Notes under the pieces: generated by a model
Databases searched by the model: none
What the model was told of the DNA's origin: nothing
What the model saw: the letters and a program-made list of their open reading frames with translations, nothing else
In this document: one piece after another, positions 41,862 to 60,626 of the stretch
How the letters are laid out: the number at the start of each line of letters is the position of its first letter
Position numbering within the stretch: the first letter of the stretch is position 1
Virus record (IMG/VR): IMGVR_UViG_3300048851_000098
Coordinates: 32,001-96,000 of that record
From: a virus
Length of the DNA stretch: 64,000 bases
Strand: one strand, 5' to 3'
Program-made: the position numbers and the translations under genes

Positions 41862-42237
41862 GGATCACGATGCGCGCGCTCGCACTCTGTGCTGAGCAGT
41901 TACCCTTGCGGCAGACGGTGATCGTGAACACACCGGGGAGCATGCCGGCGACGGTGCGCATGCGAGCGTCTACGCGGCCCCACGAGTCCGTCACGGCCCA
42001 TCCGAATCTCACACGTCTGCCGCTGTTGCTAGCGAAGACCGTCAGGCGAGCGCGGCCGTCGAAGCCTCGTGCTCGCACGTTGAAGCTGTCGCCCGCCTGG
42101 ATCTCTCTCGGCGCCACTGTGACGCGAGGCCCCTCCGCAGCGTCAGCATCTCCACCGAACGCCATAGCGATAGCGAATCCCATCGCAACCGCAAACACAC
42201 AGAATCCGAATGCATACTTTTTCACGAGCTTATTCAT
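41854..42237 (-). CDS. secreted Ig-like protein
   Basis: Signal peptide ending ADA; beta-strand pattern; preceded by AAAGGATCAG. Confidence 0.65.
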   Translation of the reverse strand: MNKLVKKYAFGFCVFAVAMGFAIAMAFGGDADAAEGPRVTVAPREIQAGDSFNVRARGFDGRARLTVFASNSGRRVRFGWAVTDSWGRVDARMRTVAGMLPGVFTITVCRKGNCSAQSASARIVIHG

Positions 42238-42463
42238 GACTGATCCTTTTCGTGTAAAAATCATCGCAATACTGCTCGACTTTGATCTTCGAGACTGAGC
42301 AGCGGCCACAGTACCGCAGCAGCTTCGTTGTAGTGACTGATGTTGAGCTGTTCGTTTCTCAGCTCGGCGATCTTTCTTGCGATAGCTCTCTTTGTTTCTC
42401 CATAGTCAAGAGTCACACCATCAGGAAAGAATCTGTAGTTGCCGCGCTCCGGAATATCAGCCA

Positions 42464-46277: not shown

Positions 46278-46543
46278 CTTCTGTCCCTTTCTGCTTCAAG
46301 ATCCGATACGAGTACATTGATCGGATTTTTGAAATCTGCGGCCAGTTCATCACAGATGATTTCTGCTTCGCCGTACTCATCATTGATTTCATGAATAGTG
46401 CATCTGAGACGGCTTACATTTTCTGATTTGAGTGAGCAGATTTTTCTTAGGAGAAGCGCGTTTGGATACCAACCAGAATGCTCTCGAATAACTTCTTCGA
46501 GTTCATCTGACAGGATCAGATACGCTGTGTCACCGGTTTGCAT
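46274..46543 (-). CDS. hypothetical protein
   Basis: TAATG- and ATGA-coupled on both sides. Confidence 0.55.
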   Translation of the reverse strand: MQTGDTAYLILSDELEEVIREHSGWYPNALLLRKICSLKSENVSRLRCTIHEINDEYGEAEIICDELAADFKNPINVLVSDLEAERDRR

Positions 46544-47001
46544 TAGCCGATGATTCCGAGCACGGCACTGACCTTCGCCAGTTCCTTCTGCCACTCGGCC
46601 TTTTCTCTTTCTGCTTGCTCGATTACTCTGTCCTGCCAAGCAATTCTCTCGCGAAGGAAATCGCAATGCTCGGTAGCGCTTTTGTACAACGCCGGAATCA
46701 GGTTACCCTCGTGAGTTGATTCTTTGAGAGGCAGACGTGATCTGTCGTCGTACTTCGTTTGTGTTGAGCTAACTGTGCTTCGAGGATCTACAGGCAGCTC
46801 AAGCCCCAGGCGTCTTGCGCCACGGCGAATTTTCTTCGCACTGAAGCCTGTTGCATCTTCGATCTGCGTCCACGTCAGCCCATCGTGACGCATCTCAACT
46901 GCCCATCTAATTCTGAAGTCGTCGCCTTGGTTTGGCTCCTCCTCCACCGCCACTGACTCGCGTGCCTCTTCGCCAGTGACCCCTTCCTCGGTTACCACCA
47001 C
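46543..47001 (-). CDS. HTH plus coiled-coil protein
   Basis: GLTWTQIEDATGFSAKKIRR. Confidence 0.65.
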   Translation of the reverse strand: MVVTEEGVTGEEARESVAVEEEPNQGDDFRIRWAVEMRHDGLTWTQIEDATGFSAKKIRRGARRLGLELPVDPRSTVSSTQTKYDDRSRLPLKESTHEGNLIPALYKSATEHCDFLRERIAWQDRVIEQAEREKAEWQKELAKVSAVLGIIG

Positions 47002-48704: not shown

Positions 48705-48762
48705 TTCGATCCCTTCGCATATGTGATTTCTTCAGCGCCCCTAAGAGGCTACGAACCTCTAT

Positions 48763-48888: not shown

Positions 48889-49025
48889 AGGCTACGAGCA
48901 AATTGTTTGGATTCGATATAGGCGCTCTAACCAGGCTGAGCTACACGCCTTTTGAGCGTGACGGGATTCGAACCCGCGACCTCCCTCTTATGCGGAGATA
49001 ATCGATTCCATCCGGCTCGTAGCCT
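48889..49025 (-). ncRNA. YrlA-type Y RNA with a permuted tRNA-like domain
   Basis: AGGCTACGAGC/GCTCGTAGCCT ends; T arm (GGGTTCGAATCCC), closed acceptor (CACGC/GCGTG), then D arm (TAGCTCAGCCTGGTTAGAGC); adjacent to Ro60. Confidence 0.9.
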
Positions 49026-49128: not shown

Positions 49129-49270
49129 CTGGTCGAACAAATTAGTTGAAAAGCGAGATTTTTTACCACTGCTCTACCAATTGAGCTACCGACGCTCTTC
49201 GAGCCTCGGGCAGGAATCGAACCTGCAACCTTTGGTCCCTGAGATAACGCTTATCGTCCGGCTCGACCAG
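49129..49270 (-). ncRNA. second YrlA-type Y RNA
   Basis: CTGGTCGAGC/GTTCGACCAG ends; T arm GCAGG-TTCGATT-CCTGC, closed acceptor, D arm TAGCTCAATTGGTAGAGC. Confidence 0.9.
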
Positions 49271-49276
49271 TTGTAA

Positions 49277-49441
49277 CTATTTTCTCCTTGACCCTCGCCA
49301 ATCAGCTCTTCGTGTCTTTCTATTATGAGCCCATTTTCTTGCTGCTCTTCTAGCAGTGGCCCACATAAATCTACGCTGCTTTTCACTTCTGAATTTACCG
49401 CCGCCATGTTTTCTCTGGCGAGAGCGAGAAGCCATTTTCAT
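49277..49441 (-). CDS. 54-aa Arg-rich small protein (not in the ORF track)
   Basis: MKMASRSRQRKHGGGKFRSEKQRRFMWATARRAARKWAHNRKTRRADWRGSRRK; GGGAGA RBS. Confidence 0.6.
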   Translation of the reverse strand: MKMASRSRQRKHGGGKFRSEKQRRFMWATARRAARKWAHNRKTRRADWRGSRRK

Positions 49442-49516: not shown

Positions 49517-49684
49517 CAAAAGAAAAGAACTGCCGAGAGATCGCGATACGCGGTGTCTCTCGACAGTCCTTTTCCCCCAACACAGCGACCAGGCGGGACG
49601 TGGTCACTGTCATGGTGAGCCTGCAAGCGAATGCCGGAAGAGGATCAGCAAAACCGGCGGGCTTGCAGGCTCTCCACGATTATA
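49517..49684 (-). ncRNA. putative trans-acting sRNA with its own promoter and terminator
   Basis: TGnTATAAT (49679-49687); 12-bp stem GAGCCTGCAAGC/GCTTGCAGGCTC; 16-nt loop TTTTGCTGATCCTCTT; 11-bp terminator stem followed by TTCTTTTCTTTT. Confidence 0.65.
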
Positions 49685-50041
49685 TCAGTCTCTTTCGTGT
49701 TCCCGCATGATCTCGTGCGCTTGAATGTCAGCCTCTTCGAGATCATGCACGAGTCTGATTGCTTCTTCGAGAGTTTCACAGGAATGCACTTCAACATCCC
49801 ATTTACTTGGCTTTCGACCAGGATATGAAATTTCTCGACCGCTGTCATCCAGAATCAAAATCTCGCCAACGTGGAAGACTGGTGCTCGCATCACCAATGC
49901 AAGCTGAAGAGGAATAGGAGAGAATTTTCCATCATCTCCATATTGCTTTTCAGGATTATCTGAATACAGCTCGAAAGCAGCAGCCAGATTACCACCTGTC
50001 TCTGGTTCGCACACTCTGGTGACAACAGCGAATTCAGCCAT
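49685..50041 (-). CDS. hypothetical protein
   Basis: Overlaps the Fic stop; ends at the sRNA promoter. Confidence 0.55.
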   Translation of the reverse strand: MAEFAVVTRVCEPETGGNLAAAFELYSDNPEKQYGDDGKFSPIPLQLALVMRAPVFHVGEILILDDSGREISYPGRKPSKWDVEVHSCETLEEAIRLVHDLEEADIQAHEIMREHERD

Positions 50042-50507
50042 GATGTCTGTCAAGCGTGGCGTAGTACCAGAGCTGAAGGAACGGCAGTACGAACGGATCG
50101 TTGCCAAGCCTCATCATCTGCCAGGCCCACAGAGCGCGCCCGCTGCGGCCGTTGCCGTCCATGAACGGGTGGATGCGCTCGTACTCCGCGTGTGCGTCGT
50201 ACGGGTTGTCCAGCACACCGTTCACAGCGTCTTGTATCCCGTCGAGCCAGTCGGTCAGGTACTTCACGACCAACGGCCCGCCTTGTGGCGGAACATGATT
50301 CCCCACAACCACAGAGTGATGATCCTGCGTCCGCAGTGGTGCGTTGGCTACCGTAGAAACGAATTCTTGTATATCTTCGATTCTCAGGTAGTCCTTCATC
50401 CACAGATCTTCGTGCGCTCTGATCTCGCTCGCATTCGGACGACGAAAGATTCCCTCGATCCCGTTCGACTCTGTGATGAATGCTATTACCTTTTCTCTAT
50501 TCATCAC
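50034..50507 (-). CDS. Fic-domain protein with an N-terminal inhibitory helix motif
   Basis: HPFMDGNGRSGR; SNGIEG matches (S/T)xxxE(G/N). Confidence 0.92.
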   Translation of the reverse strand: MMNREKVIAFITESNGIEGIFRRPNASEIRAHEDLWMKDYLRIEDIQEFVSTVANAPLRTQDHHSVVVGNHVPPQGGPLVVKYLTDWLDGIQDAVNGVLDNPYDAHAEYERIHPFMDGNGRSGRALWAWQMMRLGNDPFVLPFLQLWYYATLDRHHG

Positions 50508-51313: not shown

Positions 51314-51564
51314 GTTGGGTCTTCGATTACTGCCACCGCCACGCCGACATCATCCCCGCCGACTGAGTAGACGCGATGCCCTCTGCTGTCGCACTTGTGT
51401 GCAACGCTGGCGAAGCCATCAGGAAAGTTGATCACGTTCGCTGGGGCAGTATCACGCTGCTCGATCTTCGCATCGTTACCGCACCCCGCGAAGAAAATCA
51501 GAACAACAACTGCCGCGATGATTGCAACACACAGCAGAAAGAAACGTTGATTGGTTCTACTCAT
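51304..51564 (-). CDS. lipoprotein
   Basis: Signal peptide with lipobox FAGC. Confidence 0.65.
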   Translation of the reverse strand: MSRTNQRFFLLCVAIIAAVVVLIFFAGCGNDAKIEQRDTAPANVINFPDGFASVAHKCDSRGHRVYSVGGDDVGVAVAVIEDPTCR

Positions 51565-51691
51565 AGTTATCCCTTGAATATAAGCCACAGAAAAACAAGT
51601 GCGAGAAGTGTTCCGCACAGGATGATCGTTACTTGTACTGCGGGGTGAAGTTCCGTGAAACTGGTTTCTTCGGTCGCTGCCAAAATAAAGT

Positions 51692-52398: not shown

Positions 52399-52460
52399 AT
52401 GCTGATCCTTTCTGAAATTCTACAAAAACTGATTCGAACTCTACCTATTATTATAGCACA

Positions 52461-54850: not shown

Positions 54851-54980
54851 TCTGATCCTTTCCCGTGATCTGGTGTGCTGGCCGAACACTACCAGAAACG
54901 GCTTACATGCGGTGACTTTCACAGATACGGGCTACAAGCAATAAGCGCCTGTAGCCCCGTATTTCTGCGACTAGTTGGTG

Positions 54981-55808: not shown

Positions 55809-55880
55809 TTTGGCTGATCCTTTCTGTTGTTGGCGATACAGCCGGACTACAGGGTAACACAGAACCCCAAAGTCCACAAG

Positions 55881-57886: not shown

Positions 57887-57944
57887 GCTGATCCTTTCTG
57901 ACAGTTTTCAGGCTATCGGTCTACATCATCTCATATGCGCTGCT

Positions 57945-59145: not shown

Positions 59146-60137
59146 AGTCCCGCACCCCCAAGTGCCAGATCGAACGCATTTGCCTTGAATGAGCCGGGAT
59201 CATCTATGGCGCGCTGAAAGCGACCGCCATCCTTGCGTTCCTCGCGCATCCAATCGGCATGCTCCACAGCAGCGTTGTAGAGGCTCCACCACGAGCGCGG
59301 GGAGTTGCCAGTGGTGTCGCCATCGGGGCCGTGGCCCTCGAAAATGAGCTGGACCTGTTCACGTGCCGCCTCGCGATTCCGTCTCTGACGCTCGCCTGTC
59401 TGATCGGTAATCGGAAACAGTCCGCTCAGGTAGGCGCGAACATCGGCTTGGGAGGGGATCGCCATAGCGAGCAGATCACCCAACGCCTTGAACTGTTCGT
59501 AGTAGTTGACGGTGACTCTGAGCACATTTGCAGCGTTTTCCATCTTCGCTTGCATGTTGCCCAGGTGTCGAAGCGTGTAGGTCCGGTCAGCGTTGTAGTC
59601 GTGCGCGAGCCTTACAGCCGCCGTGACGGTGTTCTGACAGACGATGCGGATCGGGGTCACCGCCGCAGTGATAGAGCGCTTGCCGTCGTGAGCATTCTCG
59701 ATGAATGCGTACTGGCCGATGGCGTCGCCGCCGACCTCGATGTAGTCAGGGATCTTGAGCATTACCCATACACGTCTGCCGTTCATCAACGAACCGGCAG
59801 TTTCGAAATGCATCTCAGACTGGAAGATTCCAGACAGGAAAGAGAATGCTTCGATGTTCTGCACTGGCGAATAACGTCTAGAGACGATGCCAAGTGATGC
59901 ACCTGTATCACTTCGCACGTTTGCAAAATAGCCAGGAATTGCTGTGAATGTTGGTTCATCCAGACTATTCAGGCTGTGATAAGCAATTGGCTTCTGAACG
60001 ACATCCCAGGCGAGCCCGGAAAGATGAATCGCTTCTTCAATGCTGTCGGGCGCCTTGTCGAGCACAGCCCCCAGGCCGTGCCACGGCACTTCCCGTACAG
60101 AGAACATGTGATCGTCTTGATTGATTCCCGCCGGCAT
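59142..60137 (-). CDS. DUF932 (TIGR03299-type) phage/plasmid protein
   Basis: MFSVREVPWHGLG, LGIVS.RY.PVQN, FETAGSL..GRRVW, N.HDG, PIRIVCQNT, W..YNA. Confidence 0.92.
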   Translation of the reverse strand: MPAGINQDDHMFSVREVPWHGLGAVLDKAPDSIEEAIHLSGLAWDVVQKPIAYHSLNSLDEPTFTAIPGYFANVRSDTGASLGIVSRRYSPVQNIEAFSFLSGIFQSEMHFETAGSLMNGRRVWVMLKIPDYIEVGGDAIGQYAFIENAHDGKRSITAAVTPIRIVCQNTVTAAVRLAHDYNADRTYTLRHLGNMQAKMENAANVLRVTVNYYEQFKALGDLLAMAIPSQADVRAYLSGLFPITDQTGERQRRNREAAREQVQLIFEGHGPDGDTTGNSPRSWWSLYNAAVEHADWMREERKDGGRFQRAIDDPGSFKANAFDLALGGAGL

Positions 60138-60147
60138 TTCTGATCCT

Positions 60148-60600
60148 TTATCTTGCGGTTCTGTGTTTGATGTGCGCTTTCATGACAGCCGCTTTGTCGT
60201 CAGACCACATGCCTCTCAGATCATCGAACTGTGGCAATCCGTTCTTTGCTCGTTCGATCTCCAAACGACGGCGATCATCAGACCACATTTTGCGAAGCTG
60301 TCGTTGTCTTTCTTGATCTGCTTTATTTTTGTTGTTTGGCTCATATGGACCAAACTCATCGATAAGTCGATGAATCAGATCGATAATCGGATGCGATTTA
60401 TCTCTCTGAGGCTTTGTTTCTTCTATTGCTGAAAGCGCAGTCGCTACATCCACACCAGCTTCGATTTCCTGAATCACGTTAGTAGCGACTCGCCATCTGC
60501 GGTTTGCATCCTCGATCTTTTCTTTCGCTGCAACCAGACCTAACCATGAACCGGCACCAATTCCAGCGATAAAGATTACAAGTGCGATCAAGAGTTCCAT
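60148..60600 (-). CDS. membrane-anchored hypothetical protein
   Basis: N-terminal TM; AAAGGATCAG upstream. Confidence 0.6.
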   Translation of the reverse strand: MELLIALVIFIAGIGAGSWLGLVAAKEKIEDANRRWRVATNVIQEIEAGVDVATALSAIEETKPQRDKSHPIIDLIHRLIDEFGPYEPNNKNKADQERQRQLRKMWSDDRRRLEIERAKNGLPQFDDLRGMWSDDKAAVMKAHIKHRTAR

Positions 60601-60626
60601 TGCTGATCCTTTACGTCAAACGCACA

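What the first reader, a model, noticed from the sequence alone, without database searches (positions are those of the whole stretch)
49517..49684. Phage sRNA whose loop is antisense to a start motif shared by seven accessory-arm genes
Seen: a minus-strand unit with an extended -10 (TGATATAAT, 49679-49687), a 12-bp stem and an intrinsic terminator. An inner GCCGG/CCGGC helix exposes the 16-nt loop UUUUGCUGAUCCUCUU (49638-49653). This loop pairs over 8-11 contiguous nt with AAAGGAUCAG(C), which lies 1-5 nt before the start codons at 42237, 52398, 54850, 55808, 57886, 60137 and 60600. The longest match is 11 nt, with the gene at 60600. Known: the loop contains CUGA, a YUNR U-turn motif typical of antisense recognition loops. 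Inference: a trans-acting RNA that occludes the RBS of a whole gene set (a regulon switch), or a guide for a ribonucleoprotein. It is encoded immediately upstream of the Y RNA/Ro60 locus.
Basis: partly seen in the sequence, partly recalled or inferred. Interest (0 to 1): 0.9.

Follow-up and report, generated by a model that had tools for sequence, protein, structure and literature searches.

The report
Phage hairpin RNA mirroring start-site tag
An uncultivated soil phage puts the same 10-letter tag in front of about 25 of its accessory genes and also encodes a strongly folded small RNA whose open loop is the mirror image of that tag, so one RNA may control translation of the whole gene set; nobody has seen the RNA, and chance is not excluded.

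Summary
AAAGGATCAG is the commonest 10-mer of the whole 124-kb phage genome: 27 exact copies, 25 of them 1-10 nt before a start codon, and 24 of those 25 on the minus strand. This is a start-associated sequence (SAS) in the sense used for Cluster K mycobacteriophages.

The unit at 49517-49687 (-) lies between two real genes. It has a perfect extended -10, three hairpins (z = -8.3) and a terminator. Its 16-nt loop is predicted to be open (0.33 kcal/mol) and pairs with every SAS start over 8-13 contiguous nt. Net energies are -8.8 to -17.1 kcal/mol. No shuffled loop (0 of 3000) does as well.

The RNA's function is not shown. There are no close relatives, so covariation cannot be tested, and no RNA run is listed. 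Antisense matches within 1 kcal/mol also occur inside coding sequence. The chance of such a loop match is about 0.003-0.06.

One independent parallel: in K1-type mycobacteriophages the single reverse-oriented SAS copy sits in the loop of a conserved, covarying hairpin behind a conserved promoter. Other SAS-bearing K lineages lack that match.

This scan has noted the same design in at least six other phage genomes. I did not check those notes.

Verdict: a candidate anti-SAS regulatory RNA, confidence about 0.45.

The parts
49679..49687 (-). Extended -10 promoter-like element TGATATAAT (TGnTATAAT). Its first three bases are the TGA stop of the upstream gene, and there is no convincing -35.
   Evidence: It is one of only two TGNTATAAT in the 124-kb genome. 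Both are on the minus strand; the other (52450-52458) precedes SAS gene 52398.
49617..49672 (-). Hairpin 1: 12-bp outer stem (49661-49672 with 49617-49628), 5-bp inner GCCGG/CCGGC helix and a 16-nt apical loop. The transcript start near 49672 is inferred from the -10 position.
   Evidence: MFE and centroid structures agree.
49638..49653 (-). Apical loop UUUUGCUGAUCCUCUU, the anti-SAS sequence. It is complementary to (G)AAAGGAUCAGCAA(AA) apart from one A-C mismatch.
   Evidence: Opening cost 0.33 kcal/mol. Contiguous pairing of 8-13 nt with all 25 SAS starts. Best 16-nt window on the minus strand for duplex with the SAS consensus, -19.3 kcal/mol.
49577..49615 (-). Hairpin 2 (10-bp stem plus a short extension); role unknown.
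49517..49576 (-). Hairpin 3: long (about 21-bp) G+C-rich hairpin ending in UUCUUUUCUUUUG, an intrinsic-terminator-like 3' end.
   Evidence: The simple terminator scan did not list it.
42240..42249 (-). SAS copy AAAGGATCAG, 2 nt before ATG 42237.
52402..52411 (-). SAS copy, 3 nt before ATG 52398; 10-nt loop match.
54852..54861 (-). SAS copy, 1 nt before ATG 54850.
55814..55823 (-). SAS copy, 5 nt before ATG 55808 (collagen-repeat protein).
57888..57897 (-). SAS copy, 1 nt before GTG 57886 (Pyr_redox_2-like protein).
60140..60149 (-). SAS copy, 2 nt before ATG 60137 (DUF932 protein).
60603..60612 (-). SAS copy, 2 nt before ATG 60600; 11-nt loop match.
49685..50041 (-). Upstream gene, 118 aa as called in the public protein collection. 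The unit is at least its 3' untranslated region.
   Evidence: P0001, 118 aa; relatives at 52% identity or less; no Pfam or PHROG hit.
49277..49441 (-). Downstream gene for a 54-aa very basic protein. It bounds the 246-nt non-coding gap that holds the unit.
   Evidence: phrog_1375, E = 2.7e-5.

Best explanation
The unit is a non-coding RNA of about 155 nt. It is made from its own extended -10 promoter, as the 3' end of the upstream gene's message, or both, and it ends at a strong intrinsic terminator. Hairpin 1 holds a 16-nt loop open. That loop base-pairs with the private start-associated tag AAAGGAUCAG(CAA), which sits in the Shine-Dalgarno position of about 25 accessory genes, 24 of them on the minus strand. 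Pairing would cover the ribosome-binding site and often the start codon, so one RNA would lower translation of the whole tagged set together. This would work like an RNA version of an early-gene shut-off. Shown: the motif set, the fold, loop accessibility and the complementarity. Inferred: transcription, pairing in trans, the direction of the effect (repression) and its timing.
For: 1. The tag is real and strongly selected. It is the commonest 10-mer of the genome. There are 27 exact copies, 25 within 1-10 nt of a start codon, with almost no one-mismatch variants at starts. Many genes without the tag, including plus-strand ones, have GGAGG-type sites instead.
2. The unit is non-coding and unusually structured. 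z = -8.3, no Pfam or PHROG hit for any overlapping ORF, and real genes on both sides.
3. The loop is predicted free, with an opening cost of 0.33 kcal/mol.
4. Complementarity covers the invariant core AGGAUCAG and runs into the half-conserved flank: C at +10 in 14 of 25 sites and A at +11 in 15 of 25.
5. Contiguous pairing is 8 nt at 11 sites, 9 at 5, 10 at 1, 11 at 7 and 13 at 1. Mean duplex energy is -16.2 kcal/mol, and 0 of 3000 shuffled loops reach it.
6. With accessibility included, all 25 SAS starts score -8.8 or better (mean -12.0). Only 4 of 187 other ORF starts reach -8.
7. The loop is the best of about 124,000 minus-strand 16-nt windows for duplex with the SAS consensus.
8. The expected number of chance hits of one given 9-mer in a loop closed by a perfect stem is 0.058 (stem of 5 bp or more) to 0.003 (8 bp or more) per strand.
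9. An independent parallel, checked here: in Anaya and other K1-type mycobacteriophages the single reverse-oriented SAS copy noted by Pope et al. 2011 (PMC3203893) lies on the transcribed strand. It sits in the loop of a conserved hairpin with a covarying outer stem, behind a conserved SigA-like promoter, and gives a duplex of -22.8 kcal/mol with their SAS.
10. Pope et al. left open whether an RNA or a protein reads SASs. The role was still called unknown in 2024 and 2025.
Against: No transcript has been observed and no relative exists, so neither expression nor covariation could be tested. The match is the best on its strand but not an outlier: coding-sequence windows score -18.8, -18.5 and -18.5 against -19.3. 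The antisense 8-mer occurs five times in the minus arm, and at least one copy simply encodes a hydrophobic peptide. The loop mismatches (A-C) an invariant A of the tag, and 11 of 25 sites pair over only 8 nt. The promoter rests on one 9-mer that is not enriched in the genome (2 copies against 2.9 expected), overlaps a stop codon and has no -35. SAS function does not generally need such an RNA. Amohnition keeps 17 copies of the Cluster K SAS consensus (exact or one mismatch), but its hairpin loop pairs only imperfectly (-15.7). Marshawn, Keshu and Pixie have no match. Phage Mordin's SAS-like repeat has no same-strand antisense copy in its first 45 kb. One RNA would have to titrate about 25 messages.
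Confidence: 0.45

Rival explanations
1. The unit is only the structured 3' untranslated region and terminator of the upstream operon (Fic/DOC gene and the 118-aa gene). It insulates that operon from the Y RNA/Ro60 block. The loop's complementarity to the tag is a coincidence. The tag itself is read by something else: a phage or host protein, or simply the ribosome as a tuned binding site.
For: [quoted passage not shown] A strong terminator closes it. Comparable antisense matches arise by chance in coding sequence. TGNTATAAT is not enriched. With a lenient definition of a hairpin, the chance of a 9-mer loop hit is about 6% per strand. Several SAS-bearing phages have no anti-SAS RNA.
Against: A terminator needs neither hairpin 1 nor hairpin 2. 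Hairpin 1 has no U-tail and displays exactly the anti-tag in a 16-nt open loop. 0 of 3000 shuffled loops match as well. The top-ranked minus-strand window of the genome falls in this loop. The same layout recurs in K1 mycobacteriophages.
Confidence: 0.33
2. The anti-tag acts in cis or within its own operon, like the c4 RNA of phage P1. It would be carried on, or processed from, the same long transcript as a tagged gene (for example gene 52398, about 2.8 kb upstream). It would pair mainly with that copy and control one operon, not a genome-wide regulon.
For: The unit lies downstream of SAS gene 52398 on the same strand, and that gene has the genome's only other TGNTATAAT. In K1 mycobacteriophages I saw no terminator between the anti-SAS hairpin and the next gene, so it may lie in a long structured leader.
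Against: Terminator-like sites at 51599-51618 and 51511-51529 lie between gene 52398 and the unit. The loop matches other tagged genes better than 52398: 11-13 nt against 10 nt. There is no Rfam C4 match.
Confidence: 0.1
3. The reverse-oriented copy works at the DNA level, or as a general anti-Shine-Dalgarno mimic. In the first case a DNA-binding protein that recognises the tag, in the manner of Cluster A stoperators, also binds this inverted copy. In the second, the CCUC-containing loop soaks up ribosome-binding sites or competes with the 16S rRNA tail without tag specificity.
For: The plus strand at 49639-49648 reads AGAGGATCAG, one mismatch from the tag. The loop's 3' part AUCCUCUU is complementary to GAGG-type Shine-Dalgarno sites. 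Stoperators are the known precedent for about 30 asymmetric sites in one orientation (discussed in PMC3203893).
Against: The tight spacing of the tag to start codons (1-10 nt) points to translation, not transcription. Only 5 of 27 copies have a -10-like hexamer just upstream. Non-SAS starts are predicted to bind the loop poorly: 4 of 187 at -8 kcal/mol or better.
Confidence: 0.07

Closest known systems
Start-associated sequences (SAS) of Cluster K mycobacteriophages, with their single reverse-oriented copy (Pope et al. 2011, PMC3203893)
   Same: Both are short asymmetric sequences in many exact copies, a few nt before start codons. They are confined to the non-structural arm, in one orientation, contain a Shine-Dalgarno core and are conserved beyond it. 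One extra copy in the opposite orientation is not linked to a gene start. In K1 phages I find it in a hairpin loop on the transcribed strand, as here.
   Different: The sequence is unrelated: AAAGGATCAG against GGGATAGGAGCCC. The phage is unrelated and its host unknown. I looked for no ESAS-type inverted repeats. Here the anti-tag sits in a unit with a terminator, whereas in K1 it may lie in a long leader before the next gene (I saw no terminator there). The published work gives the reverse copy no function.
c4 antisense RNA of phages P1/P7 (Rfam RF01695) and similar phage immunity RNAs
   Same: A small structured phage RNA whose exposed loops pair with complementary sites, one of which covers a ribosome-binding site (my own knowledge of the system).
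   Different: c4 acts on two sites in its own transcript to control one operon. Here about 25 dispersed genes carry the site. There is no sequence or structure match to the Rfam model.
Multi-target trans-acting bacterial sRNAs that occlude ribosome-binding sites, for example the 6C/B11 sRNA of Actinobacteria
   Same: A loop-displayed pyrimidine-rich seed, an intrinsic terminator at the 3' end and many targets hit at the ribosome-binding site. B11 is reported as a multi-target regulator (PMC10470900, abstract seen). The C-rich-loop mechanism is from my own knowledge.
   Different: Those sRNAs exploit ordinary G-rich Shine-Dalgarno regions of host genes. Here the targets carry a private, exactly repeated tag, so the regulon is defined by design. 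No chaperone is known.
T4 RegB endoribonuclease and RegA translational repressor
   Same: The functional logic is the same: a phage factor recognises a short motif in the ribosome-binding region of many early messages and shuts them off together (my own knowledge).
   Different: Those factors are proteins. Nothing here indicates cleavage, and no RegA or RegB homologue was sought.
Stoperators of Cluster A mycobacteriophages (L5 gp71 sites)
   Same: About 30 copies of a short asymmetric sequence in one orientation relative to transcription (as contrasted with SAS in PMC3203893).
   Different: Stoperators are DNA sites that block transcription and are not tied to start-codon spacing. The tag here sits 1-10 nt from starts.

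Membership tests
Start-associated sequence (SAS) as defined for Cluster K phages | Short asymmetric sequence present in many near-exact copies per genome | tested here: met
   27 exact copies; it is the commonest 10-mer of the genome.
Start-associated sequence (SAS) as defined for Cluster K phages | Located within a few nt upstream of start codons | tested here: met
   25 of 27 copies are followed by ATG or GTG within 1-10 nt.
Start-associated sequence (SAS) as defined for Cluster K phages | One orientation, restricted to the non-structural arm | tested here: met
   24 copies on the minus strand, nearly all at genome 74-116 kb. Most plus-strand genes, including the replication and structural genes, lack it.
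Start-associated sequence (SAS) as defined for Cluster K phages | Contains a Shine-Dalgarno core, but conservation extends beyond what 16S rRNA pairing explains | tested here: inconclusive
   AAAGGA fits the usual UCCUUU tail and UCAG does not. The host and its 16S rRNA are unknown (inference).
Start-associated sequence (SAS) as defined for Cluster K phages | Sequence GGGATAGGAGCCC, or homology to it | tested here: not met
   The motif is different, so this is an analogue and not a member of the Cluster K family.
Trans-acting base-pairing sRNA that occludes ribosome-binding sites | Discrete transcript with its own start and end | not testable with these tools
   Promoter-like and terminator-like sequences are present. 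No RNA data were available.
Trans-acting base-pairing sRNA that occludes ribosome-binding sites | Accessible seed complementary to the target ribosome-binding sites | tested here: met
   Loop opening cost 0.33 kcal/mol; 8-13 nt contiguous pairing; net energies of -8.8 to -17.1 kcal/mol at all 25 sites. This is in silico only.
Trans-acting base-pairing sRNA that occludes ribosome-binding sites | Seed and target conserved or covarying in relatives | not testable with these tools
Trans-acting base-pairing sRNA that occludes ribosome-binding sites | Regulatory effect on targets with compensatory rescue | not testable with these tools
   This needs an experiment.
P1/P7 c4 antisense RNA (Rfam RF01695) | Match to the covariance model | tested here: not met
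   No C4 hit at the gathering threshold or at E <= 10.
Y RNA / YrlA (Rfam RF02553) | Match to the covariance model (Ro-binding stem plus tRNA-like domain) | tested here: not met
   YrlA matches lie only at 48889-49022 and 49147-49253. Within 49517-49687 the only hits were weak, sub-threshold ones on the terminator hairpin: ctRNA_p42d (E = 0.094) and mir-1329 (E = 5.1).
Intrinsic (Rho-independent) terminator | G+C-rich hairpin directly followed by a U-run | tested here: met
   A hairpin of about 21 bp ending in UUCUUUUCUUUUG. It was not listed by the simple scan.

The most novel reading that the evidence does not exclude
A private ribosome-binding tag plus a phage-encoded 'anti-tag' RNA is a recurrent phage design. 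The phage marks a set of accessory or early genes with an exact start-site tag and makes one structured RNA whose loop reads that tag, giving it a single switch for the translation of about 25 genes. That would give start-associated sequences, unexplained since 2011, an RNA partner in at least some lineages (this phage and K1 mycobacteriophages).
Probability: 0.35. Interest if true: 0.8.

Novelty: new variant of a known kind. Interest (0 to 1): 0.6.

Why it matters
Start-associated sequences have been known in mycobacteriophages since 2011, and their role was still called unknown in 2024 and 2025. The original paper explicitly left open whether an RNA or a protein reads them. A loop-displayed antisense copy gives a concrete, mutable candidate partner. 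This phage is uncultivated, but the parallel in K1 mycobacteriophages sits in phages that are grown, engineered and already have RNA-seq data, so the idea can be tested directly. If it holds, it describes a way for a phage to define its own regulon by tagging ribosome-binding sites. It would also give a simple orthogonal tag and anti-tag pair for translational control.

Tried and rejected
- **Near and distant DNA searches** of the unit against 50,697 phage records found no match.
- **Exact 16-mer loop scan of IMG/VR** gave 108 hits. All are unrelated coding contexts and none has the stem.
These are high-G+C coding matches. The one hairpin-like hit (L248) is a bacterial contig with no similarity to this phage.
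- **Protein anchors.** The upstream gene's best homologue is 52% identical. Its one IMG/VR relative (L002) has no comparable RNA downstream. The best DNA polymerase relative is 58% identical on an 18-kb contig without the tag. Ro60 relatives at 42-47% identity carry no copy of the tag.
- **Sequencing runs.** Only one soil DNA run holds the stretch, probably the source sample. No RNA holder is listed.
- **Rfam.** No family matches the unit, only weak sub-threshold hits on the terminator hairpin. None matches the K1 region either.
- **Coding readings.** No Pfam or PHROG hit for any ORF overlapping the unit. The upstream TGA is in frame with 23 more codons through hairpin 1, but there is no support for read-through.
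- **Promoter association of the tag.** Only 5 of 27 copies have a -10-like hexamer just upstream, against a background of 3.7%. This is some enrichment but not a general rule.
- **Extended -10 as a phage-wide promoter type.** Not enriched.
- **Generality test in Citrobacter phage Mordin** (26-bp SAS-like repeat). No same-strand antisense copy in the first 45 kb; the second half was not examined.
- **16S rRNA tail mimicry by the loop.** Considered by eye only. The host is unknown, so this was not pursued.

Full report
**Where the window comes from.** The window is bases 32001-96000 of a 124,171-base IMG/VR virus record. One soil metagenome run holds it. G+C is 52%. The phage has 25 tRNA genes, a DnaE-type polymerase, a DnaB helicase, a primase and portal-like genes on the plus strand. 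A long minus-strand arm carries mostly unknown genes. No cultivated phage is close: the polymerase is at most about 34% identical to any phage record and 58% identical to one 18-kb IMG/VR contig.

On the minus strand the TGA stop of the upstream gene begins TGATATAAT at 49687-49679, a perfect TGnTATAAT. From about 49672 the RNA folds into three hairpins:
- Hairpin 1 (49672-49617) has a 12-bp outer stem, a 5-bp GCCGG/CCGGC inner helix and a 16-nt loop at 49653-49638.
- Hairpin 2 is 49615-49577.
- Hairpin 3 (49576-49520) has about 21 bp and runs into UUCUUUUCUUUUG.

The 181-nt stretch has MFE -95.6 kcal/mol against -60.1 +/- 4.3 for shuffles, so z = -8.3. The loop costs only 0.33 kcal/mol to keep open, with or without 300 nt of upstream message.

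No ORF overlapping the unit hits Pfam or PHROGs. Both neighbours are real genes. The upstream one is a 118-aa protein with about 38 metagenomic homologues. The downstream one is a 54-aa basic protein in phrog_1375. The unit therefore fills a 246-nt non-coding gap.

AAAGGATCAG occurs 8 times in the window against 0.2 expected. In the whole genome there are 27 exact copies, and it is the commonest 10-mer. Twenty-five copies are followed by ATG or GTG within 1-10 nt. Twenty-four of these are on the minus strand, between genome 74 and 116 kb plus one at 29.8 kb, and one is on the plus strand at 120.4 kb.

One-mismatch variants at starts are nearly absent. The positions after the core prefer C, A, A: 14, 15 and 17 of 25 sites. 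The last of these is often the A of ATG. Many genes without the tag, including plus-strand ones, have GGAGG-type sites. The tagged genes are unrelated to one another: a collagen-repeat protein, a Pyr_redox_2-like protein, DUF932 and unknowns.

This is a start-associated sequence in the sense of Pope et al. 2011. They described GGGATAGGAGCCC in 11-19 copies, mostly 3-7 bp before starts, in one orientation in the non-structural arm of Cluster K mycobacteriophages. They left open whether an RNA or a protein reads it. Papers from 2024 and 2025 still call the role unknown.

**Loop against motif.** The loop UUUUGCUGAUCCUCUU is the reverse complement of (G)AAAGGAUCAGCAA(AA), apart from one A-C mismatch at the second A of the core. 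Results against the 25 tagged starts:
- Contiguous Watson-Crick pairing is 8 nt at 11 sites, 9 at 5, 10 at 1, 11 at 7 and 13 at 1.
- Mean duplex energy is -16.2 kcal/mol. None of 3000 shuffles of the loop reaches it; the best is -15.3.
- After adding the cost of opening loop and target, all 25 tagged starts score between -8.8 and -17.1 kcal/mol (mean -12.0). Of 187 other called ORF starts, four reach -8 and two reach -10.

These numbers mostly restate a single fact, that the loop matches the tag. The relevant question is therefore how often such a match would arise by chance.

**How much is chance?**
- I scored every 16-nt window of both strands against the tag consensus. Leaving aside the strand opposite the tag copies themselves, the loop is the best window on the minus strand (-19.3). 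However, three coding-sequence windows follow at -18.8, -18.5 and -18.5.
- The antisense 8-mer occurs five times in the minus arm, where about 0.7 is expected (my own estimate). One copy (genome 104,923) shares 15 nt with the loop because it encodes a hydrophobic peptide. Complementarity of this strength is therefore not rare in itself.
- What is unusual is the place. The expected number of hits of one given 9-mer in a loop of 8-20 nt is 0.058 per strand if the closing stem is 5 perfect bp or more, 0.003 for 8 or more, and 0.0006 for 10 or more. Hairpin 1 has 5 bp directly at the loop and 12 more outside.
- I put the post-hoc chance at roughly 0.003-0.06. That is suggestive, not decisive.

- TGNTATAAT occurs twice in the genome against 2.9 expected. 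Both copies are sensibly placed: the other one precedes tagged gene 52398 and has a partial -35.
- A YUNR motif is expected in more than half of all 16-nt loops.
- Nothing ties the unit to Ro60 or the Y RNAs beyond adjacency. YrlA-like matches lie only at 48889-49022 and 49147-49253. By eye, a TTGCAT-18-TATGCT promoter-like site follows the terminator.

**Relatives and expression.** I found none of either.
- The loop 16-mer, the tag-plus-start 15-mer and a degenerate hairpin pattern gave only unrelated coding hits in IMG/VR and in metagenome contigs.
- Protein anchors reach only 42-58% identity, and none of the loci fetched carries an exact copy of the tag.
- Covariation, the test that could have settled the matter in silico, was therefore not possible.

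[quoted passage not shown] I located it in Anaya at 59,870-59,882.
- On the transcribed strand it reads GGCCUCCUAUCCC. It lies in the 385-nt gap between genes 96 and 97.
- It forms the loop of a GCGCGG/CCGCGC helix nested in a 10-bp outer stem.
- The region is conserved in 150 Cluster K records.
- The alignment shows the upstream gene's terminator, a conserved TTGaCG-17-TAGACT promoter and this hairpin. RNAalifold keeps 16 pairs, two of them with double changes.
- The loop is identical in Anaya, Angelica, Validus, Murucutumbu and Niklas while the flanks vary. It gives -22.8 kcal/mol with the SAS, and -21.0 in SgtBeansprout.

The parallel has limits. Amohnition keeps 17 copies of the same SAS consensus (exact or one mismatch), yet its loop pairs only imperfectly (-15.7), as do those of Amgine and TClif. 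Marshawn, Keshu and Pixie have no match. In Citrobacter phage Mordin, whose 26-bp repeat was likened to SASs, the first 45 kb hold no same-strand antisense copy. An anti-tag RNA, if functional, is therefore a lineage-specific addition and not what makes SASs work in general.

**What the scan noted before.** After I had reached this reading, a look-up showed that the scan has noted the same design in at least six other phage genomes. In each, a hairpin loop is antisense to a phage-wide start motif. One note reports that tag and loop changed together in relatives. I did not check those notes. They are leads, not support.

**Reading.**
- Most likely (about 0.45): the unit is an RNA, free-standing or 3'-UTR-derived, whose loop pairs with the tag and lowers translation of the tagged genes together.
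- Main rival (about 0.33): a structured 3' end and terminator with a coincidental match, while the tag is read by a protein or simply by the ribosome.
- Smaller rivals: a c4-like action within its own operon (about 0.1), and a DNA-level site or general anti-Shine-Dalgarno mimic (about 0.07).
- The mechanism is of a known kind, an sRNA occluding ribosome-binding sites. A regulon defined by a private, exactly repeated start tag with an RNA reader is not described in the papers I read.

Noticed in passing
L351:39683-40067 (Mycobacterium phage Anaya, record 59682-60066) and homologous loci L352-L363: A non-coding region of about 385 nt is conserved in 150 Cluster K records. It has its own SigA-like promoter (TTGaCG-17-TAGACT) and several hairpins, one displaying the reverse SAS copy in K1 phages. 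Some annotators call a hypothetical ORF over it (Angelica gp92, Validus gp103), but indels that are not multiples of three argue against coding. No Rfam family matches it.
   Followed up: partly
window 49277-49441 (-): A 54-aa, very arginine- and lysine-rich protein gene (phrog_1375, unknown function) lies between the unit and the Y RNA array. It has its own GGGAGA ribosome-binding site and a promoter-like TTGCAT-18-TATGCT.
   Followed up: partly
window 49614-49687 (-): The TGA stop of the 118-aa gene is in frame with 23 further codons that run through hairpin 1 and end at a second TGA. There is no evidence for read-through; it is noted only because TGA is the leakiest stop.
   Followed up: no
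genome 24672-24681 (+), 7.3 kb before the window: An exact tag copy on the plus strand lies 4 nt after TATAGAAT but has no start codon within 16 nt. It could be the 5' end of a non-coding transcript or a decayed gene start.
   Followed up: no
window 46503-46520 (-): Immediately before an ATG (about 46503) the minus strand reads ...UCUGAUCCUGUCAG AUG. The reverse complement of the tag core sits in the ribosome-binding position of a gene, just after the stop of ORF 46543-47001.
   Followed up: no
window 48705-48735 (-): The Ro60 start is preceded by GAAGGGATCGAAATG, which looks like a degenerate tag (AAAGGATCAGAAATG in tagged genes).
   Followed up: no
window 64731-64746 (just past the window end; genome 96731-96746, -): A variant GGAGGATCAGCC directly before a GTG start joins a canonical GGAGG site to the ATCAG part of the tag.
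   Followed up: no
genome 109.5-110.6 kb (-), outside the window: Several tagged starts in a row are preceded by a repeated GTGCATAC...ATGTACATAGACT block, possibly a repeated promoter cassette comparable to the ESAS of Cluster K.
   Followed up: no
window 50037-50507 (-): A Fic/DOC-family protein (PF02661, E = 7e-9) is encoded two genes upstream of the unit, in the same apparent operon.
   Followed up: no
L365:15880-17377 (Citrobacter phage Mordin): A 1.5-kb stretch between two annotated terminators has no annotated gene, right after the block of genes that carry the 26-bp SAS-like repeat.
   Followed up: no
L002:2700-3700: The only IMG/VR relative of the upstream gene uses a repeated (G)ATGGAATGA stop-start overlap for several consecutive small genes. 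This is a different kind of stereotyped start context.
   Followed up: no
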